Shown in pieces: positions 24,158-62,874 of a DNA stretch of 64,000 nt. How positions within the stretch are numbered: position 1 is the first letter of the stretch; the number at the start of each line of letters is the position of its first letter. The stretch is from Eledone cirrhosa. Taxonomy: Eukaryota. The position numbers and the translations under genes were made by a program. The stretch spans positions 9,610,001 to 9,674,000 of the forward strand of contig OZ024745.1 in NCBI GenBank assembly GCA_964016885.1, in the 5' to 3' direction. Under the pieces are notes generated by a model. It worked only from the letters and a program-made list of their open reading frames with translations. It had not been told where the DNA came from and did no database searches.

Positions 24158-25505
24158 AACAAAAGCTAAGTATAGTGGCTTCTAATAACCTCTCTTGTAG
24201 TTGTCTCGCTAAGAGGGTATCTGTTGCACTTTTCCCAGGCACATAACCAAACTGCATCGCATCTAGTTGGACCCTTTCTATAATTAGTTGCGCTAATATC
24301 CTTTCTGCCACTTTCACAACCTGATCCATCAGCTTTATTCCTCTATAATTGCTCATGTCCAGAGCATCTCCTTTACCTTTGTAGCAATTTACGAGAATAT
24401 TGCTGCAGCAGTCTTTGAGTACAAAACCGACATATATAGCCTGATTTGATGAAGCGTGCAACCAGTTGAGTGCCTATGTCCCCTGATGCCTGCAGCATCT
24501 CGGCAACTATTCCTGACGGTCCAGCGGCCTTACCATTATTCATTTCCTTAATCGCCTCTTAGACCATATATTCGTCAATCTGAATAGCTGATCCCTCTGT
24601 CGGATGTACTGGGGGGGTAATTTCTCTCTTTCTCACATTGGGTCTCCACATTCATCAGTCTCTCTTAATGACATTTCCAGGCCTTTTTTTTCTGACCATC
24701 CGTGAAACTAAGTACGCCGGCATCATTAACCAGACAAACTTAATCTCGATTTGCACTGACACACAGCCTCGCAATACGGAACACGGCGCGTCTTTGATCT
24801 TCTTGTCGAGCAGCCTCCTTGCGTGCTAAGTACACCTGACGTCTAGCTTCTCTCTTAGCGGCTGTATATTCTTCTCTACTCGCACTAATTTTGCAAGCAT
24901 TCCATGCTAGTCTTTAGTCTCCAATGGCCCGATCTACCGTGCTGTCCCACCACCATGTCACTTTCTGTCTGGTTGGAACTCTGATCCAGCCACAAGTTTC
25001 ATCAGTAACCTGCAGTAAGGTATCGCATAAGAAATTCCAGTTATCATCTATGTTGTACGACTCTAAATCGTCTTCTTTTTCATCATACACATATTGAAGG
25101 GCTTTCCTAAATTTGTATTTTAGTGAGAGCTCTTTTAGCTTCCAGACCTTTCTTTTTTCCACACCTTCCTGTATGTCTCATTCAGTCTCTTGCTTGGGGT
25201 ACATTCTTCCCCGGGGTATGCCTTTGTATTTGACACCATCTGCCTGTCCCGCTGCCTAACTAGCAAGAAGTCAATCTGCCTTATGTGCTTGCCTGATTTG
25301 TAGGTTATTAGGTGGTTGGCAGATTTGTGTAAGTTAGTGTTGTAGATGGTTAGTGCAATTGCATCGCAAAATTCAAGAAGTTTCACTGCTTCATTTCTTA
25401 AGCCGTAAGTGTGCCCAACATGTACCTCAGTGTAACCATCGTAGAGCTGTCCAACATGACCATTGAAATCCCCTGCTAGCATAACGATGTCTCCGTCCTG
25501 TCATT
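24157..25505 (-). mobile_element. RTE-clade LINE fragment: APE endonuclease, linker, RT N-terminus (with deletions)
   Basis: AGDFNGHVG, QIDFLL, TWWW, NYRGIKL and QFGYVPGKSATD in the expected order on the minus strand. The part from 24805 onward belongs to the array. Confidence 0.9.
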
Positions 25506-25579
25506 GTGGCTGTTTGTAAAAATTGCTTGTAAATGCAGAATTTCTTGTCTTTACCTAGCAGCAGTTTCTTGCTCTCAAT

Positions 25580-25631
25580 TAACCCTAAAACTAGCCGTAA
25601 CGCTAACAGTAACACTAACCGTAACACTAAC
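25580..25631 (+). repeat. Degenerate (TAACCC)n-like hexamer tract (in every unit)
   Basis: taaccc taaaac tagccg taacgc taacag taacac taaccg taacac taac. Confidence 0.75.
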
Positions 25632-25632
25632 T

Positions 25633-25890
25633 TATGCAGGCCTAGGTAAAGACGAGAAAGATAAAACAAGGAGTGATGCTATTTGAATTTTGTGATGCAA
25701 GTGTTTTAACCATTTGCAAAACCAACTTCCGCAAACCTGCCAACTGCCTAATAACCTACAAATTAGGCAAGCACAGAAGCCGGATTTCTTGGTAGTTAGG
25801 CAGCGAGACAGACAGATGGTGTGAAGTACCAGGGTGTGCCCCGGGGAGGACTGTTTCCCACAGCGTGGGTTGGTTGTTGGTGATCCTGAG
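25633..25890 (+). mobile_element. Plus-strand RTE endonuclease fragment, inverted relative to 25193-25375 (in every unit)
   Basis: YAGLGKDEKDK, EFCDA, TNFRKPANCLITYKLGKH, VVRQRDRQMV and PGEDC are paralogous to the minus-strand copy. Confidence 0.85.
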
Positions 25891-25978
25891 ACGGAGTGAG
25901 GAGGGTGTTTATAGGTAAATAGATAGACTGATGCACAGATATCTGGATAGATTGATAGAGAGATAGATATATAGAGAG

Positions 25979-26445
25979 CATCATTATCATCGTCTGTTCA
26001 TCATTTTACGTCCGCTTTTCCCTGCTTGAAAGGGTGGGACAGGTCCTCTTGAGCAAAGCATCTCTTCACTTGTCACGGTCCTTCGTCATCTCCTTGGTGA
26101 GTTTCAGCGATCTGAAGTCGGCTCTCACCACCTCCACCCATGTTTTTCGTGGTCTTCCTCTACTGCGTCTCCCTTCTTTACCCAGCGCTCAACCTCCATG
26201 CGCATCACATGTCCATACCATCTCAGTCCTCTCTTGCACACCACAACTTATCCCTCTTAAACACAGTTTCTCTCTCAACTCGTTTATGCTTGGTCGTTCC
26301 CGCACATTGACATTGCACATCCAACGGAGCGTGCTTGCTTCATTTCTCTCCAGCCATCGCATACCCTCTGCAGTTGCTGTCCATGTCTCACTACCATGCA
26401 GGGTCGCACATCTCGCATAGGCATCATGTAACCACACTTTCGTAC
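25979..26445 (-). mobile_element. RTE LINE 3' end with (GAT)n-type tail (in every unit)
   Basis: LHGSETW...LERNEASTLRWMCNV; tail catcattttacgtccgcttttccctgcttg. Confidence 0.88.
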
Positions 26446-26518
26446 GCATATATATATTTGTATACATGTATATATATATATATATGTGTGTATGTATATA
26501 TATATGTATGTATATATT

Positions 26519-26678
26519 TGTCCTGGGTATGACATTAAACTACATCCAGTGGCAAGGCTCAAGTTCAGGAGGAACTGTGGGGAACGTGGAGTTACCCCCT
26601 TAGTTGTCATAACTCCCAGGTCTGCTCTGGCCTGGTGTAGTAGTACCTGTTGGGGCCCCATTTATAGGTTAAATAATA
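26519..26678 (+). mobile_element. SINE central-domain fragment (in every unit and at 23275-23432)
   Basis: tgtcctgggtatgacattaaactacatc...aaggctc...gtggagt.acccc...actcccaggtc...gtagtacctgtt.ggg.cccat resembles a widespread molluscan SINE core as I recall it. Family name not assigned. Confidence 0.55.
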
Positions 26679-27180
26679 AGATGACAGATCGGCGTACCCT
26701 ATCAAAGGCCTTCTCTAGGTCAACAAAGGCTAAGTATAGTGGCTTATTTTTCTCTAAGAACCTCTCTTGTAATTGTCTCATCAAGAAGAGGGCATCTGTT
26801 GTACTATTCCCAGGCACAAAACCAAACTGCATCTCATCTAGTTTGACCCTTTCTCTAATTAGTTGTGCTAATATCCTTTCTGCCACTTTCATAACCTGAT
26901 CCATCAGTTTTATATCCCTATAATTTCTCCTCTCAAGAGCGTCCCCTTTACTTTTGCACTAGTCTTTGGGTATGACACTGCCATATATAGCCTGATTGAT
27001 GATGTGTGCAACCAGTTTAGTGCCTACGTCCCCTGAGGCCTTCAGCATCTCAGCAACTATCTCCGATGGTCCAGCAGCCTCACCATTTTTCATTTCCTTA
27101 ATCGCCTCTTGGACCCTATATTCGTTAATCTCAATAGCTGGTCCCTCTGTCTGATCTACTGAGGGTAATTTCTCTCTCTC

Positions 27181-27183
<3 letters not shown>
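26679..27183 (-). mobile_element. RTE LINE reverse transcriptase N-terminal fragment (in every unit)
   Basis: MKNGEAAGPSEIVAEMLK, QFGFVPGNSTTDALF and YLAFVDLEKAFDRV. Truncated before the YADD motif. Confidence 0.92.
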
Positions 27184-27222
<39 letters not shown>

Positions 27223-27345
27223 TGAAAGATTTGTAAATGTCTGAGAGATTGGCTAAATGTTTTACAGTGTACTGTGCCACTAAACTGCACCATACTAAAT
27301 TACACTACACTGCACTGCACTGCACTGCACTGCACTGCACTGCAA
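27183..27345. repeat. (AT)19 and (TGCAC)6 microsatellites, length-variable among units
   Basis: Counted directly: the AT tract is 38 nt in unit 1, 32 in unit 2 and 34 in unit 5; TGCAC is x6 in unit 1 and x5 in units 2 and 5. Confidence 0.9.
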
Positions 27346-30300
27346 TGTTCACTCTAACGCTAGTGTTTTGTGTTTTGCAGGTATGACCAGTAAGAGCGAG
27401 GAAGTTATTTCAAAGGATTTTCGTAATTAAACACTTTTTTTACCATTATTTTAAGGTATTATCTCGGTTTTTTTTTTTAAATGGACCTCTTGATAAGACG
27501 AAATGACCTGTATAATTTGTTTTCATATTTAGATGGAATAGAAGAAAAAGAAGAGAAATGAAAGCAATGAAATTAAGTTTTAGAGAAAATATACGCCAAC
27601 GACAATGGAGGTATGATTTCAGTTTAATCTTAACCTAATGACCACTTTACAGAGTGTACTGGGTGTGTTTTACCTCGCTATGTTTACTGTAAACCCTAGA
27701 TAACGAATGCCTTGTTGAGTGTTGTGAATTGTGAACGTGAGGTTGTGTTGTGGGGTTGCTTGGTGAGGTTGCATAAGAAGGGTGTTGTGAGTTTGCATTA
27801 TGATGTAGCTTTGTGAGGCTTTGTTGTGAATTGATAAATATTTGAAAACACACCTCTGTCCCTCAACAGTCAGTCAGTCATTTTCTACTAAAACTCATTG
27901 ATGCGAGTCCCTAGCATTGTATCTGTAAGTACATTATGACTATTTTCTCTTGGTGGACTTGACATTCAAAGATATTTGTATATATTTTGTTGATGTTGTT
28001 TGTTAGTTAGGAAATTGCTTAAAAGCTACTTTGATCACAGCACTTTGTAAAGGCAACATATGTTTAAGATTCTTTTTTCTTTTATTTTTGTTATTCAGAT
28101 GACAGAGAAGGCAAAGAAAGGCACAGAAGAAAAGAACAATGACGATTATTATTATTATTATTACTATTATTATTTGTTTTATTATAATCAAAATATGCTG
28201 TTAGTTTGCCTGCTATCCCACTACGTGCCTGCTATCGCACTCGATCTTTTGTGTACGTTTTATATAATTTATGCCAGTTCCGTTTCTGCATATCGAACAT
28301 GGCCATTTCCCTGACGGAATAGAGTTTTGTCCTCTTTTCTACTCATCAACACTCATTCGTGACACAAAGTACAGCGGCATCATTGCGGACAGACTTAATC
28401 CCGATTTGCACTGACACACTGCCTTGCAGTACGGAACAGCGCACGTCGTCGAGCAGCCTCCTTGCATGCTAAGTACACCTGACGTCTAGCTTCTCTCTTA
28501 GCGGCTGTATATTCTTCTCTACTCGCACTAATTTTGCAAGCATTCCATGCTAGTCTTTAGTCTCCAATGGCCCGATCTACCGTGCTGTCCCACCACCATG
28601 TCACTTTCTGTCTGGTTGGAACTCTGATCCAGCCACAAGTTTCATCAGTAACCTGCAGTAAGGTATCGCATAAGAAATTCCAGTTATCATCTATGTTGTA
28701 CGACTCTAAATCGTCTTCTTTTTCATCATACACATATTGAAGGGCTTTCCTAAATTTGTATTTTAGTGAGAGCTCTTTTAGCTTCCAGACCTTTCTTTTT
28801 TCCACACCTTCCTGTATGTCTCATTCAGTCTCTTGCTTGGGGTACATTCTTCCCCGGGGTATGCCTTTGTATTTGACACCATCTGCCTGTCCCGCTGCCT
28901 AACTAGCAAGAAGTCAATCTGCCTTATGTGCTTGCCTGATTTGTAGGTTATTAGGTGGTTGGCAGATTTGTGTAAGTTAGTGTTGTAGATGGTTAGTGCA
29001 ATTGCATCGCAAAATTCAAGAAGTTTCACTGCTTCATTTCTTAAGCCGTAAGTGTGCCCAACATGTACCTCAGTGTAACCATCGTAGAGCTGTCCAACAT
29101 GACCATTGAAATCCCCTGCTAGCATAACGATGTCTCCGTCCTGTCATTGTGGCTGTTTGTAAAAATTGCTTGTAAATGCAGAATTTCTTGTCTTTACCTA
29201 GCAGCAGTTTCTTGCTCTCAATTAACCCTAAAACTAGCCGTAACGCTAACAGTAACACTAACCGTAACACTAACTTATGCAGGCCTAGGTAAAGACGAGA
29301 AAGATAAAACAAGGAGTGATGCTATTTGAATTTTGTGATGCAAGTGTTTTAACCATTTGCAAAACCAACTTCCGCAAACCTGCCAACTGCCTAATAACCT
29401 ACAAATTAGGCAAGCACAGAAGCCGGATTTCTCGGTAGTTAGGCAGCGAGACAGACAGATGGTGTGAAGTACCAGGGTGTGCCCCGGGGAGGACTGTTTC
29501 CCACAGCGTGGGTTGGTTGTTGGTGATCCTGAGACGGAGTGAGGAGGGTGTTTATAGGTAAATAGATAGACTGATGCACAGATATCTGGATAGATTGATA
29601 GAGAGATAGATATATAGAGAGCATCATTATCATCGTCTGTTCATCATTTTACGTCCGCTTTTCCCTGCTTGAAAGGGTGGGACAGGTCCTCTTGAGCAAA
29701 GCATCTCTTCACTTGTCACGGTCCTTCGTCATCTCCTTGGTGAGTTTCAGCGATCTGAAGTCGGCTCTCACCACCTCCACCCATGTTTTTCGTGGTCTTC
29801 CTCTACTGCGTCTCCCTTCTTTACCCAGCGCTCAACCTCCATGCGCATCACATGTCCATACCATCTCAGTCCTCTCTTGCACACCACAACTTATCCCTCT
29901 TAAACACAGTTTCTCTCTCAACTCGTTTATGCTTGGTCGTTCCCGCACATTGACATTGCACATCCAACGGAGCGTGCTTGCTTCATTTCTCTCCAGCCAT
30001 CGCATACCCTCTGCAGTTGCTGTCCATGTCTCACTACCATGCAGGGTCGCACATCTCGCATAGGCATCATGTAACCACACTTTCGTACGCATATATATAT
30101 TTGTATACATGTATATATATATATATATGTGTGTATGTATATATATATGTATGTATATATTTGTCCTGGGTATGACATTAAACTACATCCAGTGGCAAGG
30201 CTCAAGTTCAGGAGGAACTGTGGGGAACGTGGAGTTACCCCCTTAGTTGTCATAACTCCCAGGTCTGCTCTGGCCTGGTGTAGTAGTACCTGTTGGGGCC

Positions 30301-30823
30301 CCATTTATAGGTTAAATAATAAGATGACAGATCGGCGTACCCTATCAAAGGCCTTCTCTAGGTCAACAAAGGCTAAGTATAGTGGCTTATTTTTCTCTAA
30401 GAACCTCTCTTGTAATTGTCTCATCAAGAAGAGGGCATCTGTTGTACTATTCCCAGGCACAAAACCAAACTGCATCTCATCTAGTTTGACCCTTTCTCTA
30501 ATTAGTTGTGCTAATATCCTTTCTGCCACTTTCATAACCTGATCCATCAGTTTTATATCCCTATAATTTCTCCTCTCAAGAGCGTCCCCTTTACTTTTGC
30601 ACTAGTCTTTGGGTATGACACTGCCATATATAGCCTGATTGATGATGTGTGCAACCAGTTTAGTGCCTACGTCCCCTGAGGCCTTCAGCATCTCAGCAAC
30701 TATCTCCGATGGTCCAGCAGCCTCACCATTTTTCATTTCCTTAATCGCCTCTTGGACCCTATATTCGTTAATCTCAATAGCTGGTCCCTCTGTCTGATCT
30801 ACTGAGGGTAATTTCTCTCTCTC

Positions 30824-30859
<36 letters not shown>

Positions 30860-33800
30860 TGAAAGATTTGTAAATGTCTGAGAGATTGGCTAAATGTTTT
30901 ACAGTGTACTGTGCCACTAAACTGCACCATACTAAATTACACTACACTGCACTGCACTGCACTGCACTGCACTGCAATGTTCACTCTAACGCTAGTGTTT
31001 TGTGTTTTGCAGGTATGACCAGTAAGAGCGAGGAAGTTATTTCAAAGGATTTTCGTAATTAAACACTTTTTTTACCATTATTTTAAGGTATTATCTCGGT
31101 TTTTTTTTTTAAATGGACCTCTTGATAAGACGAAATGACCTGTATAATTTTTTTTCATATTTAGATGGAATAGAAGAAAAAGAAGAGAAATGAAAGCAAT
31201 GAAATTAAGTTTTAGAGAAAATATACGCCAACGACAATGGAGGTATGATTTCAGTTTAATCTTAACCTAATGACCACTTTACAGAGTGTACTGGGTGTGT
31301 TTTACCTCGCTATGTTTACTGTAAACCCTAGATAACGAATGCCTTGTTGAGTGTTGTGAATTGTGAACGTGAGGTTGTGTTGTGGGGTTGCTTGGTGAGG
31401 TTGCATAAGAAGGGTGTTGTGAGTTTGCATTATGATGTAGCTTTGTGAGGCTTTGTTGTGAATTGATAAATATTTGAAAACACACCTCTGTCCCTCAACA
31501 GTCAGTCAGTCATTTTCTACTAAAACTCATTGATGCGAGTCCCTAGCATTGTATCTGTAAGTACATTATGACTATTTTCTCTTGGTGGACTTGACATTCA
31601 AAGATATTTGTATATATTTTGTTGATGTTGTTTGTTAGTTAGGAAATTGCTTAAAAGCTACTTTGATCACAGCACTTTGTAAAGGCAACATATGTTTAAG
31701 ATTCTTTTTTCTTTTATTTTTGTTATTCAGATGACAGAGAAGGCAAAGAAAGGCACAGAAGAAAAGAACAATGACGATTATTATTATTATTATTACTATT
31801 ATTATTTGTTTTATTATAATCAAAATATGCTGTTAGTTTGCCTGCTATCCCACTACGTGCCTGCTATCGCACTCGATCTTTTGTGTACGTTTTATATAAT
31901 TTATGCCAGTTCCGTTTCTGCATATCGAACATGGCCATTTCCCTGACGGAATAGAGTTTTGTCCTCTTTTCTACTCATCAACACTCATTCGTGACACAAA
32001 GTACAGCGGCATCATTGCGGACAGACTTAATCCCGATTTGCACTGACACACTGCCTTGCAGTACGGAACAGCGCACGTCATCGAGCAGCCTCCTTGCATG
32101 CTAAGTACACCTGACGTCTAGCTTCTCTCTTAGCGGCTGTATATTCTTCTCTACTCGCACTAATTTTGCAAGCATTCCATGCTAGTCTTTAGTCTCCAAT
32201 GGCCCGATCTACCGTGCTGTCCCACCACCATGTCACTTTCTGTCTGGTTGGAACTCTGATCCAGCCACAAGTTTCATCAGTAACCTGCAGTAAGGTATCG
32301 CATAAGAAATTCCAGTTATCATCTATGTTGTACGACTCTAAATCGTCTTCTTTTTCATCATACACATATTGAAGGGCTTTCCTAAATTTGTATTTTAGTG
32401 AGAGCTCTTTTAGCTTCCAGACCTTTCTTTTTTCCACACCTTCCTGTATGTCTCATTCAGTCTCTTGCTTGGGGTACATTCTTCCCCGGGGTATGCCTTT
32501 GTATTTGACACCATCTGCCTGTCCCGCTGCCTAACTAGCAAGAAGTCAATCTGCCTTATGTGCTTGCCTGATTTGTAGGTTATTAGGTGGTTGGCAGATT
32601 TGTGTAAGTTAGTGTTGTAGATGGTTAGTGCAATTGCATCGCAAAATTCAAGAAGTTTCACTGCTTCATTTCTTAAGCCGTAAGTGTGCCCAACATGTAC
32701 CTCAGTGTAACCATCGTAGAGCTGTCCAACATGACCATTGAAATCCCCTGCTAGCATAACGATGTCTCCGTCCTGTCATTGTGGCTGTTTGTAAAAATTG
32801 CTTGTAAATGCAGAATTTCTTGTCTTTACCTAGCAGCAGTTTCTTGCTCTCAATTAACCCTAAAACTAGCCGTAACGCTAACAGTAACACTAACCGTAAC
32901 ACTAACTTATGCAGGCCTAGGTAAAGACGAGAAAGATAAAACAAGGAGTGATGCTATTTGAATTTTGTGATGCAAGTGTTTTAACCATTTGCAAAACCAA
33001 CTTCCGCAAACCTGCCAACTGCCTAATAACCTACAAATTAGGCAAGCACAGAAGCCGGATTTCTCGGTAGTTAGGCAGCGAGACAGACAGATGGTGTGAA
33101 GTACCAGGGTGTGCCCCGGGGAGGACTGTTTCCCACAGCGTGGGTTGGTTGTTGGTGATCCTGAGACGGAGTGAGGAGGGTGTTTATAGGTAAATAGATA
33201 GACTGATGCACAGATATCTGGATAGATTGATAGAGAGATAGATATATAGAGAGCATCATTATCATCGTCTGTTCATCATTTTACGTCCGCTTTTCCCTGC
33301 TTGAAAGGGTGGGACAGGTCCTCTTGAGCAAAGCATCTCTTCACTTGTCACGGTCCTTCGTCATCTCCTTGGTGAGTTTCAGCGATCTGAAGTCGGCTCT
33401 CACCACCTCCACCCATGTTTTTCGTGGTCTTCCTCTACTGCGTCTCCCTTCTTTACCCAGCGCTCAACCTCCATGCGCATCACATGTCCATACCATCTCA
33501 GTCCTCTCTTGCACACCACAACTTATCCCTCTTAAACACAGTTTCTCTCTCAACTCGTTTATGCTTGGTCGTTCCCGCACATTGACATTGCACATCCAAC
33601 GGAGCGTGCTTGCTTCATTTCTCTCCAGCCATCGCATACCCTCTGCAGTTGCTGTCCATGTCTCACTACCATGCAGGGTCGCACATCTCGCATAGGCATC
33701 ATGTAACCACACTTTCGTACGCATATATATATTTGTATACATGTATATATATATATATATGTGTGTATGTATATATATATGTATGTATATATTTGTCCTG

Positions 33801-34455
33801 GGTATGACATTAAACTACATCCAGTGGCAAGGCTCAAGTTCAGGAGGAACTGTGGGGAACGTGGAGTTACCCCCTTAGTTGTCATAACTCCCAGGTCTGC
33901 TCTGGCCTGGTGTAGTAGTACCTGTTGGGGCCCCATTTATAGGTTAAATAATAAGATGACAGATCGGCGTACCCTATCAAAGGCCTTCTCTAGGTCAACA
34001 AAGGCTAAGTATAGTGGCTTATTTTTCTCTAAGAACCTCTCTTGTAATTGTCTCATCAAGAAGAGGGCATCTGTTGTACTATTCCCAGGCACAAAACCAA
34101 ACTGCATCTCATCTAGTTTGACCCTTTCTCTAATTAGTTGTGCTAATATCCTTTCTGCCACTTTCATAACCTGATCCATCAGTTTTATATCCCTATAATT
34201 TCTCCTCTCAAGAGCGTCCCCTTTACTTTTGCACTAGTCTTTGGGTATGACACTGCCATATATAGCCTGATTGATGATGTGTGCAACCAGTTTAGTGCCT
34301 ACGTCCCCTGAGGCCTTCAGCATCTCAGCAACTATCTCCGATGGTCCAGCAGCCTCACCATTTTTCATTTCCTTAATCGCCTCTTGGACCCTATATTCGT
34401 TAATCTCAATAGCTGGTCCCTCTGTCTGATCTACTGAGGGTAATTTCTCTCTCTC

Positions 34456-34497
<42 letters not shown>

Positions 34498-37400
34498 TGA
34501 AAGATTTGTAAATGTCTGAGAGATTGGCTAAATGTTTTACAGTGTACTGTGCCACGAAACTGCACCATACTAAATTACACTGCACTGCACTGCACTGCAC
34601 TGCACTGCACTGCAATGTTCACTCTAACGCTAGTGTTTTGTGTTTTGCAGGTATGACCAGTAAGAGCGAGGAAGTTATTTCAAAGGATTTTCGTAATTAA
34701 ACACTTTTTTTACCATTATTTTAAGGTATTATCTCGGTTTTTTTTTTTAAATGGACCTCTTGATAAGACGAAATGACCTGTATAATTTTTTTTCATATTT
34801 AGATGGAATAGAAGAAAAAGAAGAGAAATGAAAGCAATGAAATTAAGTTTTAGAGAAAATATACGCCAACGACAATGGAGGTATGATTTCAGTTTAATCT
34901 TAACCTAATGACCACTTTACAGAGTGTACTGGGTGTGTTTTACCTCGCTATGTTTACTGTAAACCCTAGATAACGAATGCCTTGTTGAGTGTTGTGAATT
35001 GTGAACGTGAGGTTGTGTTGTGGGGTTGCTTGGTGAGGTTGCATAAGAAGGGTGTTGTGAGTTTGCATTATGATGTAGCTTTGTGAGGCTTTGTTGTGAA
35101 TTGATAAATATTTGAAAACACACCTCTGTCCCTCAACAGTCAGTCAGTCATTTTCTACTAAAACTCATTGATGCGAGTCCCTAGCATTGTATCTGTAAGT
35201 ACATTATGACTATTTTCTCTTGGTGGACTTGACATTCAAAGATATTTGTATATATTTTGTTGATGTTGTTTGTTAGTTAGGAAATTGCTTAAAAGCTACT
35301 TTGATCACAGCACTTTGTAAAGGCAACATATGTTTAAGATTCTTTTTTCTTTTATTTTTGTTATTCAGATGACAGAGAAGGTAAAGAAAGGCACAGAAGA
35401 AAAGAACAATGACGATTATTATTATTATTATTACTATTATTATTTGTTTTATTATAATCAAAATATGCTGTTAGTTTGCCTGCTATCCCACTACGTGCCT
35501 GCTATCGCACTCGATCTTTTGTGTACGTTTTATATAATTTATGCCAGTTCCGTTTCTGCATATCGAACATGGCCATTTCCCTGACGGAATAGAGTTTTGT
35601 CCTCTTTTCTACTCATCAACACTCATTCGTGACACAAAGTACAGCGGCATCATTGCGGACAGACTTAATCCCGATTTGCACTGACACACTGCCTTGCAGT
35701 ACGGAACAGCGCACGTCGTCGAGCAGCCTCCTTGAATGCTAAGTACACCTGACGTCTAGCTTCTCTCTTAGCGGCTGTATATTCTTCTCTACTCGCACTA
35801 ATTTTGCAAGCATTCCATGCTAGTCTTTAGTCTCCAATGGCCCGATCTACCGTGCTGTCCCACCACCATGTCACTTTCTGTCTGGTTGGAACTCTGATCC
35901 AGCCACAAGTTTCATCAGTAACCTGCAGTAAGGTATCGCATAAGAAATTCCAGTTATCATCTATGTTGTACGACTCTAAATCGTCTTCTTTTTCATCATA
36001 CACATATTGAAGGGCTTTCCTAAATTTGTATTTTAGTGAGAGCTCTTTTAGCTTCCAGACCTTTCTTTTTTCCACACCTTCCTGTATGTCTCATTCAGTC
36101 TCTTGCTTGGGGTACATTCTTCCCCGGGGTATGCCTTTGTATTTGACACCATCTGCCTGTCCCGCTGCCTAACTAGCAAGAAGTCAATCTGCCTTATGTG
36201 CTTGCCTGATTTGTAGGTTATTAGGTGGTTGGCAGATTTGTGTAAGTTAGTGTTGTAGATGGTTAGTGCAATTGCATCGCAAAATTCAAGAAGTTTCACT
36301 GCTTCATTTCTTAAGCCGTAAGTGTGCCCAACATGTACCTCAGTGTAACCATCGTAGAGCTGTCCAACATGACCATTGAAATCCCCTGCTAGCATAACGA
36401 TGTCTCCGTCCTGTCATTGTGGCTGTTTGTAAAAATTGCTTGTAAATGCAGAATTTCTTGTCTTTACCTAGCAGCAGTTTCTTGCTCTCAATTAACCCTA
36501 AAACTAGCCGTAACGCTAACAGTAACACTAACCGTAACACTAACTTATGCAGGCCTAGGTAAAGACGAGAAAGATAAAACAAGGAGTGATGCTATTTGAA
36601 TTTTGTGATGCAAGTGTTTTAACCATTTGCAAAACCAACTTCCGCAAACCTGCCAACTGCCTAATAACCTACAAATTAGGCAAGCACAGAAGCCGGATTT
36701 CTTGGTAGTTAGGCAGCGAGACAGACAGATGGTGTGAAGTACCAGGGTGTGCCCCGGGGAGGACTGTTTCCCACAGCGTGGGTTGGTTGTTGGTGATCCT
36801 GAGACGGAGTGAGGAGGGTGTTTATAGGTAAATAGATAGACTGATGCACAGATATCTGGATAGATTGATAGAGAGATAGATATATAGAGAGCATCATTAT
36901 CATCGTCTGTTCATCATTTTACGTCCGCTTTTCCCTGCTTGAAAGGGTGGGACAGGTCCTCTTGAGCAAAGCATCTCTTCACTTGTCACGGTCCTTCGTC
37001 ATCTCCTTGGTGAGTTTCAGCGATCTGAAGTCGGCTCTCACCACCTCCACCCATGTTTTTCGTGGTCTTCCTCTACTGCGTCTCCCTTCTTTACCCAGCG
37101 CTCAACCTCCATGCGCATCACATGTCCATACCATCTCAGTCCTCTCTTGCACACCACAACTTATCCCTCTTAAACACAGTTTCTCTCTCAACTCGTTTAT
37201 GCTTGGTCGTTCCCGCACATTGACATTGCACATCCAACGGAGCGTGCTTGCTTCATTTCTCTCCAGCCATCGCATACCCTCTGCAGTTGCTGTCCATGTC
37301 TCACTACCATGCAGGGTCGCACATCTCGCATAGGCATCATGTAACCACACTTTCGTACGCATATATATATTTGTATACATGTATATATATATATATATGT

Positions 37401-52000: not shown

Positions 52001-52658
52001 CTGGGTATGACATTAAACTACATCCAGTGGCAAGGCTCAAGTTCAGGAGGAACTGTGGGGAACGTGGAGTTACCCCCTTAGTTGTCATAACTCCCAGGTC
52101 TGCTCTGGCCTGGTGTAGTAGTACCTGTTGGGGCCCCATTTATAGGTTAAATAATAAGATGACAGATCGGCGTACCCTATCAAAGGCCTTCTCTAGGTCA
52201 ACAAAGGCTAAGTATAGTGGCTTATTTTTCTCTAAGAACCTCTCTTGTAATTGTCTCATCAAGAAGAGGGCATCTGTTGTACTATTCCCAGGCACAAAAC
52301 CAAACTGCATCTCATCTAGTTTGACCCTTTCTCTAATTAGTTGTGCTAATATCCTTTCTGCCACTTTCATAACCTGATCCATCAGTTTTATATCCCTATA
52401 ATTTCTCCTCTCAAGAGCGTCCCCTTTACTTTTGCACTAGTCTTTGGGTATGACACTGCCATATATAGCCTGATTGATGATGTGTGCAACCAGTTTAGTG
52501 CCTACGTCCCCTGAGGCCTTCAGCATCTCAGCAACTATCTCCGATGGTCCAGCAGCCTCACCATTTTTCATTTCCTTAATCGCCTCTTGGACCCTATATT
52601 CGTTAATCTCAATAGCTGGTCCCTCTGTCTGATCTACTGAGGGTAATTTCTCTCTCTC

Positions 52659-52700
<42 letters not shown>

Positions 52701-55700
52701 TGAAAGATTTGTAAATGTCTGAGAGATTGGCTAAATGTTTTACAGTGTACTGTGCCACTAAACTGCACCATACTAAATTACACTACACTGCACTGCACTG
52801 CACTGCACTGCACTGCACTGCAATGTTCACTCTAACGCTAGTGTTTTGTGTTTTGCAGGTATGACCAGTAAGAGCGAGGAAGTTATTTCAAAGGATTTTC
52901 GTAATTAAACACTTTTTTTACCATTATTTTAAGGTATTATCTCGGTTTTTTTTTTTAAATGGACCTCTTGATAAGACGAAATGACCTGTATAATTTTTTT
53001 TCATATTTAGATGGAATAGAAGAAAAAGAAGAGAAATGAAAGCAATGAAATTAAGTTTTAGAGAAAATATACGCCAACGACAATGGAGGTATGATTTCAG
53101 TTTAATCTTAACCTAATGACCACTTTACAGAGTGTACTGGGTGTGTTTTACCTCGCTATGTTTACTGTAAACCCTAGATAACGAATGCCTTGTTGAGTGT
53201 TGTGAATTGTGAACGTGAGGTTGTGTTGTGGGGTTGCTTGGTGAGGTTGCATAAGAAGGGTGTTGTGAGTTTGCATTATGATGTAGCTTTGTGAGGCTTT
53301 GTTGTGAATTGATAAATATTTGAAAACACACCTCTGTCCCTCAACAGTCAGTCAGTCATTTTCTACTAAAACTCATTGATGCGAGTCCCTAGCATTGTAT
53401 CTGTAAGTACATTATGACTATTTTCTCTTGGTGGACTTGACATTCAAAGATATTTGTATATATTTTGTTGATGTTGTTTGTTAGTTAGGAAATTGCTTAA
53501 AAGCTACTTTGATCACAGCACTTTGTAAAGGCAACATATGTTTAAGATTCTTTTTTCTTTTATTTTTGTTATTCAGATGACAGAGAAGGCAAAGAAAGGC
53601 ACAGAAGAAAAGAACAATGACGATTATTATTATTATTATTACTATTATTATTTGTTTTATTATAATCAAAATATGCTGTTAGTTTGCCTGCTATCCCACT
53701 ACGTGCCTGCTATCGCACTCGATCTTTTGTGTACGTTTTATATAATTTATGCCAGTTCCGTTTCTGCATATCGAACATGGCCATTTCCCTGACGGAATAG
53801 AGTTTTGTCCTCTTTTCTACTCATCAACACTCATTCGTGACACAAAGTACAGCGGCATCATTGCGGACAGACTTAATCCCGATTTGCACTGACACACTGC
53901 CTTGCAGTACGGAACAGCGCACGTCGTCGAGCAGCCTCCTTGCATGCTAAGTACACCTGACGTCTAGCTTCTCTCTTAGCGGCTGTATATTCTTCTCTAC
54001 TCGCACTAATTTTGCAAGCATTCCATGCTAGTCTTTAGTCTCCAATGGCCCGATCTACCGTGCTGTCCCACCACCATGTCACTTTCTGTCTGGTTGGAAC
54101 TCTGATCCAGCCACAAGTTTCATCAGTAACCTGCAGTAAGGTATCGCATAAGAAATTCCAGTTATCATCTATGTTGTACGACTCTAAATCGTCTTCTTTT
54201 TCATCATACACATATTGAAGGGCTTTCCTAAATTTGTATTTTAGTGAGAGCTCTTTTAGCTTCCAGACCTTTCTTTTTTCCACACCTTCCTGTATGTCTC
54301 ATTCAGTCTCTTGCTTGGGGTACATTCTTCCCCGGGGTATGCCTTTGTATTTGACACCATCTGCCTGTCCCGCTGCCTAACTAGCAAGAAGTCAATCTGC
54401 CTTATGTGCTTGCCTGATTTGTAGGTTATTAGGTGGTTGGCAGATTTGTGTAAGTTAGTGTTGTAGATGGTTAGTGCAATTGCATCGCAAAATTCAAGAA
54501 GTTTCACTGCTTCATTTCTTAAGCCGTAAGTGTGCCCAACATGTACCTCAGTGTAACCATCGTAGAGCTGTCCAACATGACCATTGAAATCCCCTGCTAG
54601 CATAACGATGTCTCCGTCCTGTCATTGTGGCTGTTTGTAAAAATTGCTTGTAAATGCAGAATTTCTTGTCTTTACCTAGCAGCAGTTTCTTGCTCTCAAT
54701 TAACCCTAAAACTAGCCGTAACGCTAACAGTAACACTAACCGTAACACTAACTTATGCAGGCCTAGGTAAAGACGAGAAAGATAAAACAAGGAGTGATGC
54801 TATTTGAATTTTGTGATGCAAGTGTTTTAACCATTTGCAAAACCAACTTCCGCAAACCTGCCAACTGCCTAATAACCTACAAATTAGGCAAGCACAGAAG
54901 CCGGATTTCTCGGTAGTTAGGCAGCGAGACAGACAGATGGTGTGAAGTACCAGGGTGTGCCCCGGGGAGGACTGTTTCCCACAGCGTGGGTTGGTTGTTG
55001 GTGATCCTGAGACGGAGTGAGGAGGGTGTTTATAGGTAAATAGATAGACTGATGCACAGATATCTGGATAGATTGATAGAGAGATAGATATATAGAGAGC
55101 ATCATTATCATCGTCTGTTCATCATTTTACGTCCGCTTTTCCCTGCTTGAAAGGGTGGGACAGGTCCTCTTGAGCAAAGCATCTCTTCACTTGTCACGGT
55201 CCTTCGTCATCTCCTTGGTGAGTTTCAGCGATCTGAAGTCGGCTCTCACCACCTCCACCCATGTTTTTCGTGGTCTTCCTCTACTGCGTCTCCCTTCTTT
55301 ACCCAGCGCTCAACCTCCATGCGCATCACATGTCCATACCATCTCAGTCCTCTCTTGCACACCACAACTTATCCCTCTTAAACACAGTTTCTCTCTCAAC
55401 TCGTTTATGCTTGGTCGTTCCCGCACATTGACATTGCACATCCAACGGAGCGTGCTTGCTTCATTTCTCTCCAGCCATCGCATACCCTCTGCAGTTGCTG
55501 TCCATGTCTCACTACCATGCAGGGTCGCACATCTCGCATAGGCATCATGTAACCACACTTTCGTACGCATATATATATTTGTATACATGTATATATATAT
55601 ATATATGTGTGTATGTATATATATATGTATGTATATATTTGTCCTGGGTATGACATTAAACTACATCCAGTGGCAAGGCTCAAGTTCAGGAGGAACTGTG

Positions 55701-56301
55701 GGGAACGTGGAGTTACCCCCTTAGTTGTCATAACTCCCAGGTCTGCTCTGGCCTGGTGTAGTAGTACCTGTTGGGGCCCCATTTATAGGTTAAATAATAA
55801 GATGACAGATCGGCGTACCCTATCAAAGGCCTTCTCTAGGTCAACAAAGGCTAAGTATAGTGGCTTATTTTTCTCTAAGAACCTCTCTTGTAATTGTCTC
55901 ATCAAGAAGAGGGCATCTGTTGTACTATTCCCAGGCACAAAACCAAACTGCATCTCATCTAGTTTGACCCTTTCTCTAATTAGTTGTGCTAATATCCTTT
56001 CTGCCACTTTCATAACCTGATCCATCAGTTTTATATCCCTATAATTTCTCCTCTCAAGAGCGTCCCCTTTACTTTTGCACTAGTCTTTGGGTATGACACT
56101 GCCATATATAGCCTGATTGATGATGTGTGCAACCAGTTTAGTGCCTACGTCCCCTGAGGCCTTCAGCATCTCAGCAACTATCTCCGATGGTCCAGCAGCC
56201 TCACCATTTTTCATTTCCTTAATCGCCTCTTGGACCCTATATTCGTTAATCTCAATAGCTGGTCCCTCTGTCTGATCTACTGAGGGTAATTTCTCTCTCT
56301 C

Positions 56302-56343
<42 letters not shown>

Positions 56344-59300
56344 TGAAAGATTTGTAAATGTCTGAGAGATTGGCTAAATGTTTTACAGTGTACTGTGCCA
56401 CTAAACTGCACCATACTAAATTACACTACACTGCACTGCACTGCACTGCACTGCACTGCACTGCAATGTTCACTCTAACGCTAGTGTTTTGTGTTTTGCA
56501 GGTATGACCAGTAAGAGCGAGGAAGTTATTTCAAAGGATTTTCGTAATTAAACACTTTTTTTACCATTATTTTAAGGTATTATCTCGGTTTTTTTTTTTA
56601 AATGGACCTCTTGATAAGACGAAATGACCTGTATAATTTGTTTTCATATTTAGATGGAATAGAAGAAAAAGAAGAGAAATGAAAGCAATGAAATTAAGTT
56701 TTAGAGAAAATATACGCCAACGACAATGGAGGTATGATTTCAGTTTAATCTTAACCTAATGACCACTTTACAGAGTGTACTGGGTGTGTTTTACCTCGCT
56801 ATGTTTACTGTAAACCCTAGATAACGAATGCCTTGTTGAGTGTTGTGAATTGTGAACGTGAGGTTGTGTTGTGGGGTTGCTTGGTGAGGTTGCATAAGAA
56901 GGGTGTTGTGAGTTTGCATTATGATGTAGCTTTGTGAGGCTTTGTTGTGAATTGATAAATATTTGAAAACACACCTCTGTCCCTCAACAGTCAGTCAGTC
57001 ATTTTCTACTAAAACTCATTGATGCGAGTCCCTAGCATTGTATCTGTAAGTACATTATGACTATTTTCTCTTGGTGGACTTGACATTCAAAGATATTTGT
57101 ATATATTTTGTTGATGTTGTTTGTTAGTTAGGAAATTGCTTAAAAGCTACTTTGATCACAGCACTTTGTAAAGGCAACATATGTTTAAGATTCTTTTTTC
57201 TTTTATTTTTGTTATTCAGATGACAGAGAAGGCAAAGAAAGGCACAGAAGAAAAGAACAATGACGATTATTATTATTATTATTACTATTATTATTTGTTT
57301 TATTATAATCAAAATATGCTGTTAGTTTGCCTGCTATCCCACTACGTGCCTGCTATCGCACTCGATCTTTTGTGTACGTTTTATATAATTTATGCCAGTT
57401 CCGTTTCTGCATATCGAACATGGCCATTTCCCTGACGGAATAGAGTTTTGTCCTCTTTTCTACTCATCAACACTCATTCGTGACACAAAGTACAGCGGCA
57501 TCATTGCGGACAGACTTAATCCCGATTTGCACTGACACACTGCCTTGCAGTACGGAACAGCGCACGTCGTCGAGCAGCCTCCTTGCATGCTAAGTACACC
57601 TGACGTCTAGCTTCTCTCTTAGCGGCTGTATATTCTTCTCTACTCGCACTAATTTTGCAAGCATTCCATGCTAGTCTTTAGTCTCCAATGGCCCGATCTA
57701 CCGTGCTGTCCCACCACCATGTCACTTTCTGTCTGGTTGGAACTCTGATCCAGCCACAAGTTTCATCAGTAACCTGCAGTAAGGTATCGCATAAGAAATT
57801 CCAGTTATCATCTATGTTGTACGACTCTAAATCGTCTTCTTTTTCATCATACACATATTGAAGGGCTTTCCTAAATTTGTATTTTAGTGAGAGCTCTTTT
57901 AGCTTCCAGACCTTTCTTTTTTCCACACCTTCCTGTATGTCTCATTCAGTCTCTTGCTTGGGGTACATTCTTCCCCGGGGTATGCCTTTGTATTTGACAC
58001 CATCTGCCTGTCCCGCTGCCTAACTAGCAAGAAGTCAATCTGCCTTATGTGCTTGCCTGATTTGTAGGTTATTAGGTGGTTGGCAGATTTGTGTAAGTTA
58101 GTGTTGTAGATGGTTAGTGCAATTGCATCGCAAAATTCAAGAAGTTTCACTGCTTCATTTCTTAAGCCGTAAGTGTGCCCAACATGTACCTCAGTGTAAC
58201 CATCGTAGAGCTGTCCAACATGACCATTGAAATCCCCTGCTAGCATAACGATGTCTCCGTCCTGTCATTGTGGCTGTTTGTAAAAATTGCTTGTAAATGC
58301 AGAATTTCTTGTCTTTACCTAGCAGCAGTTTCTTGCTCTCAATTAACCCTAAAACTAGCCGTAACGCTAACAGTAACACTAACCGTAACACTAACTTATG
58401 CAGGCCTAGGTAAAGACGAGAAAGATAAAACAAGGAGTGATGCTATTTGAATTTTGTGATGCAAGTGTTTTAACCATTTGCAAAACCAACTTCCGCAAAC
58501 CTGCCAACTGCCTAATAACCTACAAATTAGGCAAGCACAGAAGCCGGATTTCTCGGTAGTTAGGCAGCGAGACAGACAGATGGTGTGAAGTACCAGGGTG
58601 TGCCCCGGGGAGGACTGTTTCCCACAGCGTGGGTTGGTTGTTGGTGATCCTGAGACGGAGTGAGGAGGGTGTTTATAGGTAAATAGATAGACTGATGCAC
58701 AGATATCTGGATAGATTGATAGAGAGATAGATATATAGAGAGCATCATTATCATCGTCTGTTCATCATTTTACGTCCGCTTTTCCCTGCTTGAAAGGGTG
58801 GGACAGGTCCTCTTGAGCAAAGCATCTCTTCACTTGTCACGGTCCTTCGTCATCTCCTTGGTGAGTTTCAGCGATCTGAAGTCGGCTCTCACCACCTCCA
58901 CCCATGTTTTTCGTGGTCTTCCTCTACTGCGTCTCCCTTCTTTACCCAGCGCTCAACCTCCATGCGCATCACATGTCCATACCATCTCAGTCCTCTCTTG
59001 CACACCACAACTTATCCCTCTTAAACACAGTTTCTCTCTCAACTCGTTTATGCTTGGTCGTTCCCGCACATTGACATTGCACATCCAACGGAGCGTGCTT
59101 GCTTCATTTCTCTCCAGCCATCGCATACCCTCTGCAGTTGCTGTCCATGTCTCACTACCATGCAGGGTCGCACATCTCGCATAGGCATCATGTAACCACA
59201 CTTTCGTACGCATATATATATTTGTATACATGTATATATATATATATATGTGTGTATGTATATATATATGTATGTATATATTTGTCCTGGGTATGACATT

Positions 59301-59944
59301 AAACTACATCCAGTGGCAAGGCTCAAGTTCAGGAGGAACTGTGGGGAACGTGGAGTTACCCCCTTAGTTGTCATAACTCCCAGGTCTGCTCTGGCCTGGT
59401 GTAGTAGTACCTGTTGGGGCCCCATTTATAGGTTAAATAATAAGATGACAGATCGGCGTACCCTATCAAAGGCCTTCTCTAGGTCAACAAAGGCTAAGTA
59501 TAGTGGCTTATTTTTCTCTAAGAACCTCTCTTGTAATTGTCTCATCAAGAAGAGGGCATCTGTTGTACTATTCCCAGGCACAAAACCAAACTGCATCTCA
59601 TCTAGTTTGACCCTTTCTCTAATTAGTTGTGCTAATATCCTTTCTGCCACTTTCATAACCTGATCCATCAGTTTTATATCCCTATAATTTCTCCTCTCAA
59701 GAGCGTCCCCTTTACTTTTGCACTAGTCTTTGGGTATGACACTGCCATATATAGCCTGATTGATGATGTGTGCAACCAGTTTAGTGCCTACGTCCCCTGA
59801 GGCCTTCAGCATCTCAGCAACTATCTCCGATGGTCCAGCAGCCTCACCATTTTTCATTTCCTTAATCGCCTCTTGGACCCTATATTCGTTAATCTCAATA
59901 GCTGGTCCCTCTGTCTGATCTACTGAGGGTAATTTCTCTCTCTC

Positions 59945-59990
<46 letters not shown>

Positions 59991-62874
59991 TGAAAGATTT
60001 GTAAATGTCTGAGAGATTGGCTAAATGTTTTACAGTGTACTGTGCCACTAAACTGCACCATACTAAATTACACTACACTGCACTGCACTGCACTGCACTG
60101 CACTGCACTGCAATGTTCACTCTAACGCTAGTGTTTTGTGTTTTGCAGGTATGACCAGTAAGAGCGAGGAAGTTATTTCAAAGGATTTTCGTAATTAAAC
60201 ACTTTTTTTACCATTATTTTAAGGTATTATCTCGGTTTTTTTTTTTAAATGGACCTCTTGATAAGACGAAATGACCTGTATAATTTTTTTTCATATTTAG
60301 ATGGAATAGAAGAAAAAGAAGAGAAATGAAAGCAATGAAATTAAGTTTTAGAGAAAATATACGCCAACGACAATGGAGGTATGATTTCAGTTTAATCTTA
60401 ACCTAATGACCACTTTACAGAGTGTACTGGGTGTGTTTTACCTCGCTATGTTTACTGTAAACCCTAGATAACGAATGCCTTGTTGAGTGTTGTGAATTGT
60501 GAACGTGAGGTTGTGTTGTGGGGTTGCTTGGTGAGGTTGCATAAGAAGGGTGTTGTGAGTTTGCATTATGATGTAGCTTTGTGAGGCTTTGTTGTGAATT
60601 GATAAATATTTGAAAACACACCTCTGTCCCTCAACAGTCAGTCAGTCATTTTCTATTAAAACTCATTGATGCGAGTCCCTAGCATTGTATCTGTAAGTAC
60701 ATTATGACTATTTTCTCTTGGTGGACTTGACATTCAAAGATATTTGTATATATTTTGTTGATGTTGTTTGTTAGTTAGGAAATTGCTTAAAAGCTACTTT
60801 GATCACAGCACTTTGTAAAGGCAACATATGTTTAAGATTCTTTTTTCTTTTATTTTTGTTATTCAGATGACAGAGAAGGCAAAGAAAGGCACAGAAGAAA
60901 AGAACAATGACGATTATTATTATTATTATTACTATTATTATTTGTTTTATTATAATCAAAATATGCTGTTAGTTTGCCTGCTATCCCACTACGTGCCTGC
61001 TATCGCACTCGATCTTTTGTGTACGTTTTATATAATTTATGCCAGTTCCGTTTCTGCATATCGAACATGGCCATTTCCCTGACGGAATAGAGTTTTGTCC
61101 TCTTTTCTACTCATCAACACTCATTCGTGACACAAAGTACAGCGGCATCATTGCGGACAGACTTAATCCCGATTTGCACTGACACACTGCCTTGCAGTAC
61201 GGAACAGCGCACGTCGTCGAGCAGCCTCCTTGCATGCTAAGTACACCTGACGTCTAGCTTCTCTCTTAGCGGCTGTATATTCTTCTCTACTCGCACTAAT
61301 TTTGCAAGCATTCCATGCTAGTCTTTAGTCTCCAATGGCCCGATCTACCGTGCTGTCCCACCACCATGTCACTTTCTGTCTGGTTGGAACTCTGATCCAG
61401 CCACAAGTTTCATCAGTAACCTGCAGTAAGGTATCGCATAAGAAATTCCAGTTATCATCTATGTTGTACGACTCTAAATCGTCTTCTTTTTCATCATACA
61501 CATATTGAAGGGCTTTCCTAAATTTGTATTTTAGTGAGAGCTCTTTTAGCTTCCAGACCTTTCTTTTTTCCACACCTTCCTGTATGTCTCATTCAGTCTC
61601 TTGCTTGGGGTACATTCTTCCCCGGGGTATGCCTTTGTATTTGACACCATCTGCCTGTCCCGCTGCCTAACTAGCAAGAAGTCAATCTGCCTTATGTGCT
61701 TGCCTGATTTGTAGGTTATTAGGTGGTTGGCAGATTTGTGTAAGTTAGTGTTGTAGATGGTTAGTGCAATTGCATCGCAAAATTCAAGAAGTTTCACTGC
61801 TTCATTTCTTAAGCCGTAAGTGTGCCCAACATGTACCTCAGTGTAACCATCGTAGAGCTGTCCAACATGACCATTGAAATCCCCTGCTAGCATAACGATG
61901 TCTCCGTCCTGTCATTGTGGCTGTTTGTAAAAATTGCTTGTAAATGCAGAATTTCTTGTCTTTACCTAGCAGCAGTTTCTTGCTCTCAATTAACCCTAAA
62001 ACTAGCCGTAACGCTAACAGTAACACTAACCGTAACACTAACTTATGCAGGCCTAGGTAAAGACGAGAAAGATAAAACAAGGAGTGATGCTATTTGAATT
62101 TTGTGATGCAAGTGTTTTAACCATTTGCAAAACCAACTTCCGCAAACCTGCCAACTGCCTAATAACCTACAAATTAGGCAAGCACAGAAGCCGGATTTCT
62201 CGGTAGTTAGGCAGCGAGACAGACAGATGGTGTGAAGTACCAGGGTGTGCCCCGGGGAGGACTGTTTCCCACAGCGTGGGTTGGTTGTTGGTGATCCTGA
62301 GACGGAGTGAGGAGGGTGTTTATAGGTAAATAGATAGACTGATGCACAGATATCTGGATAGATTGATAGAGAGATAGATATATAGAGAGCATCATTATCA
62401 TCGTCTGTTCATCATTTTACGTCCGCTTTTCCCTGCTTGAAAGGGTGGGACAGGTCCTCTTGAGCAAAGCATCTCTTCACTTGTCACGGTCCTTCGTCAT
62501 CTCCTTGGTGAGTTTCAGCGATCTGAAGTCGGCTCTCACCACCTCCACCCATGTTTTTCGTGGTCTTCCTCTACTGCGTCTCCCTTCTTTACCCAGCGCT
62601 CAACCTCCATGCGCATCACATGTCCATACCATCTCAGTCCTCTCTTGCACACCACAACTTATCCCTCTTAAACACAGTTTCTCTCTCAACTCGTTTATGC
62701 TTGGTCGTTCCCGCACATTGACATTGCACATCCAACGGAGCATGCTTGCTTCCTTTCTCTCCAGCCATCGCATACCCTCTGCAGTTGCTGTCCATGTCTC
62801 ACTACCATGCAGCATCGCGCATCTCACTTGTGTGTGTGTGTGTGTATATATATATATGTACATACATATATATT

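What the first reader, a model, noticed from the sequence alone, without database searches (positions are those of the whole stretch)
24805..62811. Young 38 kb macrosatellite built from scrambled dead retrotransposon pieces
Seen: ~10.4 nearly identical 3.64 kb units. The unit is not a transposon: it has no LTR or TIR and no intact ORF, and its RTE parts come from different decayed insertions in non-native order. The pieces are old (stops, deletions) but the copies are almost identical, so amplification is much younger than the decay. Inference: a satellite caught at birth by unequal exchange or rolling-circle/eccDNA reinsertion. It is probably copy-number polymorphic and could influence chromatin next to the FAM13-like gene, by analogy with D4Z4/DXZ4-type arrays. 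This is the best candidate for an undescribed system here; function is unproven.
Basis: partly seen in the sequence, partly recalled or inferred. Interest (0 to 1): 0.75.

Follow-up and report, generated by a model that had tools for sequence, protein, structure and literature searches.

The report
Old subtelomeric macrosatellite with rDNA-array sister
This 3.6-kb repeat of dead retrotransposon pieces is real but not newborn: it is one of 23 near-identical arrays, 20 of them with telomere repeats just beyond, likely spread and kept alike by exchange between chromosome ends, likely transcribed into a spliced non-coding hairpin RNA, and it has an older sister copy inside a giant ribosomal-DNA-derived repeat.

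Summary
The array is real: 10.47 units of about 3.64 kb at 24697-62825, with 0-5 substitutions between full units and scrambled dead RTE LINE pieces. The reading 'satellite caught at birth beside FAM13' fails. A unit-only 22-mer has 174 exact copies, and 23 arrays were located. TTAGGG tracts lie about 38-56 kb beyond 20 of the 23; where mapped, arrays share end points and flanks. Read-derived contig depth (about 7x flank) matches the assembly. Near-identity reflects homogenisation, not youth: units on different contigs can be identical, while a tandem relic on C2 and a sister cassette in a giant rDNA-derived repeat (61 junction matches) differ by about 4-8%. One run that behaves like RNA shows two GT-AG introns pointing towards the telomere. 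The unit folds into a 200-bp RTE hairpin; one arm has excess A-to-G changes (suggestive, not proven). Verdict: a D4Z4/TAS-type subtelomeric macrosatellite, a new member of a known kind. This scan already reported the family twice on other DNA (e1-10304785, e1-9585178).

The parts
24697..62825 (+). Macrosatellite array, 10.47 units of 3632-3647 bp; + strand points to the telomere
17920..24696 (.). Proximal part of the shared subtelomere block (pieces 90-99% identical at C6, C7, C11, C12, C13, C14, C18)
62826..64000 (.). Start of the distal shared block; it runs ~38 kb beyond the array to a >10 kb TTAGGG tract at window-equivalent 100.8-111.2 kb, then a 200-N gap
23247..24159 (+). Older single copy of part of the unit in the proximal flank (1.4% substitutions in its RTE part, 7.3% in the rest)
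24156..24696 (-). RTE RT N-terminal piece in the flank, lying in native RTE order next to the first unit's RTE piece
   Evidence: order inferred from the RTE map
28354..29201 (-). Unit 2: RTE endonuclease C-terminus and linker (RTE copy positions 389-1316), antisense to the + strand
28838..29034 (+). Unit 2: left arm of the ~200-bp inverted repeat
29308..29527 (+). Unit 2: right arm, an inverted RTE endonuclease piece with A-to-G excess
29669..30091 (-). Unit 2: RTE RT C-terminal / 3' piece; the array's distal end falls in this piece at 62825
30322..30827 (-). Unit 2: RTE RT N-terminal piece (Pfam RVT_1, E 3e-10)
31830..31985 (-). Unit 2: RTE piece (positions 2226-2383) joined to the next unit's linker piece across a ~0.9 kb deletion; the head-to-tail junction
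27381..27455 (+). Unit 1: exon a (its donor is seen spliced in X4; its start is predicted)
27533..27610 (+). Unit 1: exon b, 78 nt, flanked by two GT-AG introns seen in X4; 12-mers over both splice sites kept in 73 of 73 units and in the sister
28099..29557 (+). Exon c: acceptor seen in X4; predicted to run across the unit junction and through the hairpin to a donor near 29557 (end not observed)
17185..17433 (.). 71-bp minisatellite just proximal of the shared block; an 80% relative lies in the C28 giant repeat near the sister

Best explanation
This is an old subtelomeric macrosatellite inside a block shared by many chromosome ends, likely copied between ends and kept near-identical by ectopic and unequal recombination, and likely read towards the telomere into a spliced non-coding RNA that is predicted to fold into an RTE hairpin. 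Steps: (1) RTE LINE pieces accumulated and were rearranged in or beside a spliced non-coding transcription unit (pieces shown, history inferred). (2) A segment bounded by RTE homology was duplicated in tandem long ago (relic and sister shown; homology-driven duplication inferred). (3) The block holding it spread to at least 23 places (distribution shown; exchange between ends inferred). (4) Each array gains and loses units and is homogenised locally (patterns shown; unequal exchange or conversion inferred). (5) A sister of the mosaic was amplified separately inside an rDNA-derived giant repeat (shown; direction of transfer unknown). The array is most likely a passenger of subtelomere turnover whose RNA forms double-stranded RTE sequence as a by-product.
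For: 174 exact copies of a unit-only 22-mer. 23 arrays: 21, C12, C9. Telomere tracts found for 20 of 23, always with the array's + strand towards TTAGGG; the other 3 (C8, C15, C21 second array) are cut by a contig start or a gap. In 10 of 10 'interstitial' cases with a tract, a 200-N gap follows it. The distal end at unit position 1704 with the same flank was mapped in window, C5 end, C6, C11b, C12, C13a, C14, C18 and C19; C21a, C21b and C24 run from the last unit into the same flank. 73 units from 18 arrays: mean 5.6 substitutions within arrays, 16.7 between, over 3321 columns; identical units on C24 and C6, and on C13a and C11b. U1=U4 and shared U2/U5 variants point to block duplication. C2 tandem relic: 33/866 to 78/1107 mismatches. 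Sister cassette 4.6-8.0% diverged, once per 30-45 kb unit of a giant repeat that shares pre-18S spacer, 18S-start and LSU pieces with true rDNA. X1 depth ratio ~7 matches 174/~24. X4 shows two GT-AG joints not listed for X1, X5 or X6, with contig depth 264-377 in the unit against 3-4 in the flank. Hairpin -344 kcal/mol, z -15.6. Longest ATG frame of the predicted exon chain is 73 aa.
Against: Recombination between ends is inferred from one assembly; no pedigree or second assembly was available. X4 is not on record as RNA, is contigs only, and its joint table was cut (165 rows not shown). The third intron and the hairpin's place in the mature RNA are predicted, and one X4 contig inside the predicted intron has depth 264. 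12-mers over two donors and one acceptor are intact in only 48-53 of 73 units. 'Passenger' is a default: retention of exon b in both arrays could mean selection. C14 units differ as much within the array (25.9) as between arrays, so homogenisation is uneven.
Confidence: 0.76

Rival explanations
1. TAS-like silencing locus: the arrays are kept because their hairpin and antisense RNA feed siRNA or piRNA against the abundant RTE LINE family.
For: On the + strand most RTE pieces are antisense. The left arm is ~89% identical to 30 young RTE copies. Strong hairpin; likely transcription. Exon b splice sites are kept in 73 of 73 units and in the sister. Drosophila TAS are subtelomeric, hold retrotransposon pieces and are piRNA clusters (PMC5737368, abstract and introduction).
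Against: No small-RNA data were seen. The sister lost the left arm, so it has no such hairpin. Splice-site identity among units that are 99.5% alike is not evidence of selection.
Confidence: 0.16
2. One reading: a satellite born recently at this locus by rolling-circle or eccDNA reinsertion, acting on the neighbouring gene.
For: The window's units are only 1.6 substitutions apart on average and group together in the tree, so the last local homogenisation or expansion is recent.
Against: 23 arrays with shared flanks; tandem relic and sister 4-8% diverged; higher-order duplication pattern among units; no array at an unrelated insertion site among those fetched.
Confidence: 0.03
3. The array is cargo of a large mobile element, such as a non-autonomous Helitron, that prefers chromosome ends.
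For: Helitron-like helicase remnants and CTAG-ending hairpins lie in the distal flank (motifs recognised from recall). Two non-telomeric relics exist on C2 and C3.
Against: The shared sequence extends past those motifs on both sides, up to the telomere. No intact transposase or Rep/helicase frame in the block. The relics are rearranged and still carry block flanks.
Confidence: 0.04
4. Assembly artefact.
For: The internal placement on C5 (telomere, then gap) does look like a scaffolding error.
Against: Unit-to-flank contig depth of ~7 in X1; locus-specific variants and unit lengths.
Confidence: 0.01

Closest known systems
Human D4Z4 macrosatellite (4q35/10q26). PMC2639723: abstract. PMC12963445: abstract and 5 passages. 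PMC11062572: search listing.
   Same: 3.3-kb-class subtelomeric tandem unit with variable copy number, shared with flanks between non-homologous ends; diverged relatives elsewhere, including near rDNA on acrocentric arms.
   Different: No protein gene like DUX4 here (73-aa longest frame); built of RTE debris; near-identical arrays at about 23 ends; the sister sits inside an rDNA-derived repeat unit rather than beside rDNA. No sequence homology is claimed.
Drosophila telomere-associated sequences TAS-R / X-TAS (PMC5737368: abstract and introduction)
   Same: Non-coding kb-sized tandem repeats between genes and the telomere, shared by several ends, holding retrotransposon remnants (Invader4 solo LTRs).
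   Different: LINE instead of LTR pieces; a TTAGGG telomere; a spliced transcript and an internal hairpin. piRNA production, central to TAS function, is untested here.
Human subtelomeric pseudo-homolog regions (bioRxiv 10.64898/2026.07.10.737660: abstract and opening paragraphs)
   Same: High-identity blocks shared among many chromosome ends and homogenised by ectopic exchange.
   Different: Here one collinear block of about 45 kb plus the array is shared; exchange is inferred, not seen in a pedigree.
Retrotransposon-derived satellites of Lathyrus (PMC7004042: abstract)
   Same: Satellite DNA born from retrotransposon sequence.
   Different: Those grow from short arrays inside LTR elements; this unit is a mosaic of separate decayed LINE pieces and exons.

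Membership tests
Subtelomeric macrosatellite (D4Z4/TAS-type, architectural class) | Head-to-tail kb-sized units | tested here: met
Subtelomeric macrosatellite (D4Z4/TAS-type, architectural class) | Next to telomere repeats, with fixed polarity | tested here: met
   20 of 23 arrays; 3 cut by contig start or gap
Subtelomeric macrosatellite (D4Z4/TAS-type, architectural class) | Shared with its flanks among non-homologous ends | tested here: met
Subtelomeric macrosatellite (D4Z4/TAS-type, architectural class) | Variable copy number | tested here: met
   3 to 16 units between ends of one assembly; variation between individuals not measurable from RAD reads
D4Z4 proper | DUX homeobox ORF in each unit | tested here: not met
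   no frame over 155 aa; only an RVT_1 fragment passes Pfam
TAS-type piRNA cluster | Produces piRNAs that silence matching elements | not testable with these tools
   no small-RNA run was listed
TAS-type piRNA cluster | Heterochromatic marks | not testable with these tools
   no ChIP or methylation data
RTE non-LTR retrotransposon (unit as an element) | Endonuclease and RT in native order in one ORF | tested here: not met
   pieces out of order, one inverted, broken by stops
Non-autonomous Helitron / tandem Helitron | Defined termini with independent insertions in unrelated flanks | tested here: not met
   all mapped arrays share flanks up to the telomere
rDNA-spacer-derived satellite | Unit sequence present in true rDNA repeats | tested here: not met
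   0 BLAST hits to the block in rDNA units on C12 and C25; only generic repeat hits on C4. The sister is in the rDNA-derived repeat only.
ADAR-edited retrocopy (right arm) | Strand-specific A-to-G excess | tested here: inconclusive
   Non-synonymous A>G 12/59 vs 1/78 in the neighbouring RTE piece, p 2e-4, with G>A plus C>T alike (p 0.64); but A>G vs T>C within the arm gives p 0.02-0.37 depending on the alignment

The most novel reading that the evidence does not exclude
A telomere-anchored, amplified hairpin-RNA locus against the genome's dominant RTE LINE: a spliced non-coding exon chain that was amplified twice, at about 23 chromosome ends and inside an rDNA-derived giant repeat, and one of whose hairpin arms is an ADAR-edited RNA written back into DNA.
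Probability: 0.14. Interest if true: 0.72.

Novelty: new member of a known kind. Interest (0 to 1): 0.38.

Why it matters
It defines a subtelomere class of this genome and marks chromosome ends. Ten internal arrays are followed by telomere repeats and a gap, so they flag probable scaffolding joins at true ends. It shows that 99.9% identity within an array does not date its origin. The shared mosaic records sequence traffic between subtelomeres and an rDNA-derived array, as with D4Z4 relatives near human rDNA. If small RNAs come from the hairpin, it would be a TAS-like LINE-silencing locus at a TTAGGG telomere, which one small-RNA library could test.

Tried and rejected
Whole-unit genome search was not scored; shorter pieces were used. 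Rfam on window 17000-32000 gave only sub-threshold microsatellite matches: no structured RNA gene. No RNA holder listed; this blank is no evidence. Runs X5 and X6, labelled as other organisms, hold unit pieces with 0-1 differences at depth about 2-25; I cannot tell mixed DNA from a close relative and did not use them for dating. RAD runs X15-X17 show the unit and the sister junction in three more runs, but depth depends on cut sites, so copy number per individual could not be read. True rDNA spacer as the source: rejected. Helitron enclosing the array: rejected. A>G tests restricted to the arm itself were mostly not significant (p 0.075-0.44; 0.11 for the unit and 0.02 for the sister). The 30 reference RTE copies are one young subfamily, so direction of change is uncertain, and the left arm shows no excess (4/43 vs 3/65). 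FAM13 label not confirmed. Look-alikes in other scanned genomes: none. Literature: searches (4 papers; 10 of 50 listed) showed no title on cephalopod subtelomeric satellites; (edited retrocopies) found 0 papers; some searches were seen as listings only. No supplements were opened.
Full report
Observation. Self-BLAST shows one tandem block at 24697-62825. There are 10 full units of 3632-3647 bp and 0.47 of another; full units differ by 0-5 substitutions plus microsatellite length changes. U1 equals U4, U2 and U5 share variants, and U6-U8 are identical, a pattern expected from duplication of multi-unit blocks (inference). Against a genomic RTE copy from the left flank, the unit holds positions 389-1316, an inverted 558-781, 2619-3054, 1375-1899 and 2226-2383, so the scrambling is real. 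No frame exceeds 155 aa. One RVT_1 fragment passes Pfam among 6 unit frames scanned. Rfam finds nothing above threshold.

It is not a single locus. A unit-only piece hit tandem arrays on nine contigs at 97-100% (40 of 567 candidates scored). A protein probe listed 21 arrays, C12 and C9 add two, and a unit-only 22-mer has 174 exact copies, of which 100 were listed. My tally of the other 74 leaves little room for further arrays. Where mapped, arrays stop at unit position 1704 and continue into the same flank. The proximal flank is shared from about window 17920 at C6, C7, C11 and C14. At C11b, C12, C13a and C14 the distal flank is collinear with this window's up to a telomere tract.

Telomeres. 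The window's own array lies 38 kb from more than 10 kb of TTAGGG followed by a 200-N gap. Tracts were found for 20 of 23 arrays, always with the array's + strand towards TTAGGG; C8, C15 and one C21 array are cut by a contig start or gap. For C9, C10, C13b, C18 and C1499 I checked the tip only. All 10 internal arrays with a tract have a 200-N gap just beyond it, so they are probably chromosome ends joined inside scaffolds (inference). Copy number runs from 3 to 16 units, and a 3.35-kb deletion variant occurs at C5 end, C6, C11a, C18, C19 and C24.

Not an artefact. In run X1 a unit-only contig has depth 2772 and six flank contigs 351-431, a ratio near 7, against 174 units over about 24 blocks in the assembly. 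X1 may be the assembled sample, and contig depth is only a rough proxy.

Age. Among 73 units from 18 arrays, pairs differ by 5.6 substitutions within arrays and 16.7 between, over 3321 columns; this window's units differ by 1.6 and group together; some units are identical on different contigs. That fits concerted evolution with exchange between ends, as described for human subtelomeres (abstract and opening). Older layers exist. A rearranged tandem relic on C2 has about 4-7% mismatches. Joints at depth ~3800 in X1 led to a sister junction with 61 matches, most of them spaced 30-45 kb apart on C28 and small contigs. The sister shares the unit junction, the right hairpin arm, exon b and the same distal RTE end, differs by 4.6-8.0%, and repeats with a 1.91-kb period at the C18 copy. 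Its host repeat shares pre-18S spacer, 18S-start and LSU pieces with true rDNA but has no rRNA match at Rfam's cut-off; earlier notes call it a gutted rDNA array. True rDNA units on C12 and C25 have no match to the block. So the mosaic predates both amplifications; the direction of transfer is unknown. Both array ends fall inside RTE sequence at a switch to a diverged copy (17% and 3.9%), which fits homology-driven duplication or unhomogenised edges.

RNA. After my own reading was logged, earlier notes on this family gave two leads. Run X4, not on record as RNA, has joints matching GT-AG introns 27456-27532 and 27611-28098 on the + strand, with zero depth in X1, X5 and X6. Its contig depth is 264-377 over unit pieces, 75 in an intron, 23 at the first-unit junction and 3-4 in the flank. 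A third X4-only joint (depth 490) fits a donor present in the sister, so both arrays seem to splice into exon b. The direction is towards the telomere. The predicted chain has no ATG frame over 73 aa. The inverted RTE pieces fold at -344 kcal/mol, z -15.6 on 20 shuffles; that the mature RNA holds them is predicted from X4 depth and one unobserved donor.

A-to-G lead. Against 30 RTE copies the right arm has 18/83 A>G, the sister 19/87, with 16 shared; the left arm has 2/75 on the RTE sense strand and the family copies 0-2 each. Non-synonymous A>G is 12/59 against 1/78 in the neighbouring piece (p 2e-4), while G>A plus C>T rates are alike. Within the arm, however, A>G against T>C or other transitions is weak (p 0.02-0.44), and the references are one young subfamily. 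I rate an editing fossil as possible, not shown.

Mechanism and comparison. Best reading: an old mosaic unit in a shared subtelomere block, spread and homogenised by recombination between ends, with likely read-through transcription; function most likely incidental (0.76). A TAS-like silencing role is the main rival (0.16). It works like D4Z4 and Drosophila TAS in architecture. It is not D4Z4, and TAS-type piRNA output is untested. Rolling-circle birth at this locus and Helitron cargo are contradicted by the shared flanks. The animal is called a cephalopod in earlier notes; I did not test this. Searches listed no paper on this repeat, from listings only.

Noticed in passing
G000:C5 9,710,800-9,721,400 (window-equivalent 100.8-111.4 kb): A >10 kb TTAGGG tract, preceded by TTGGGG variants and followed by a 200-N gap, 9.7 Mb inside C5: probably a chromosome end mis-joined in scaffolding. 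The same pattern occurs at nine other internal sites.
   Followed up: partly
window-equivalent 82-98 kb (L012-L014): A second, older tandem array of roughly 4.4-5 kb period, 87-96% identical, in the same subtelomere block; it shares only one weak RTE piece with the 3.64-kb unit.
   Followed up: partly
G000:C28 124.7-126.4 Mb; C178, C1185, C18:6.71 Mb: Giant rDNA-derived repeat carrying the sister. X1 depth ~3800 against flank ~400 suggests roughly 200 or more copies, so the 61 assembled are probably collapsed. One unit also holds a 957-codon minus-strand frame of a non-LTR element and a Histone3 stem-loop match.
   Followed up: partly
G000:C2 412.37-412.38 Mb and C3 361.59-361.60 Mb: Rearranged, diverged relics of the block with no telomere repeats in the 10 kb fetched; possible fossils of former ends or ectopic copies.
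   Followed up: partly
L011 1100-3200 and 7300-8200; window-equivalent 73.9-75.3 kb: Decayed Helitron-like helicase pieces and a non-LTR remnant with a restriction-like endonuclease motif in the distal block (labels from recall).
   Followed up: no
L011 4577-4650 and 5450-5520; window 17800-17875: Exon-like segments ending in GT donors on the + strand in both flanks; they may belong to the same telomere-directed transcript.
   Followed up: no
window 12400-15300: Decayed LTR-retrotransposon pol-like sequence with stops and frameshifts (label from recall).
   Followed up: no
   Followed up: partly
G000:C1499 1-17,945: TTAGGG and CCCTAA tracts 4.4 kb apart at the contig start: two telomere tracts in opposite orientation.
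   Followed up: no
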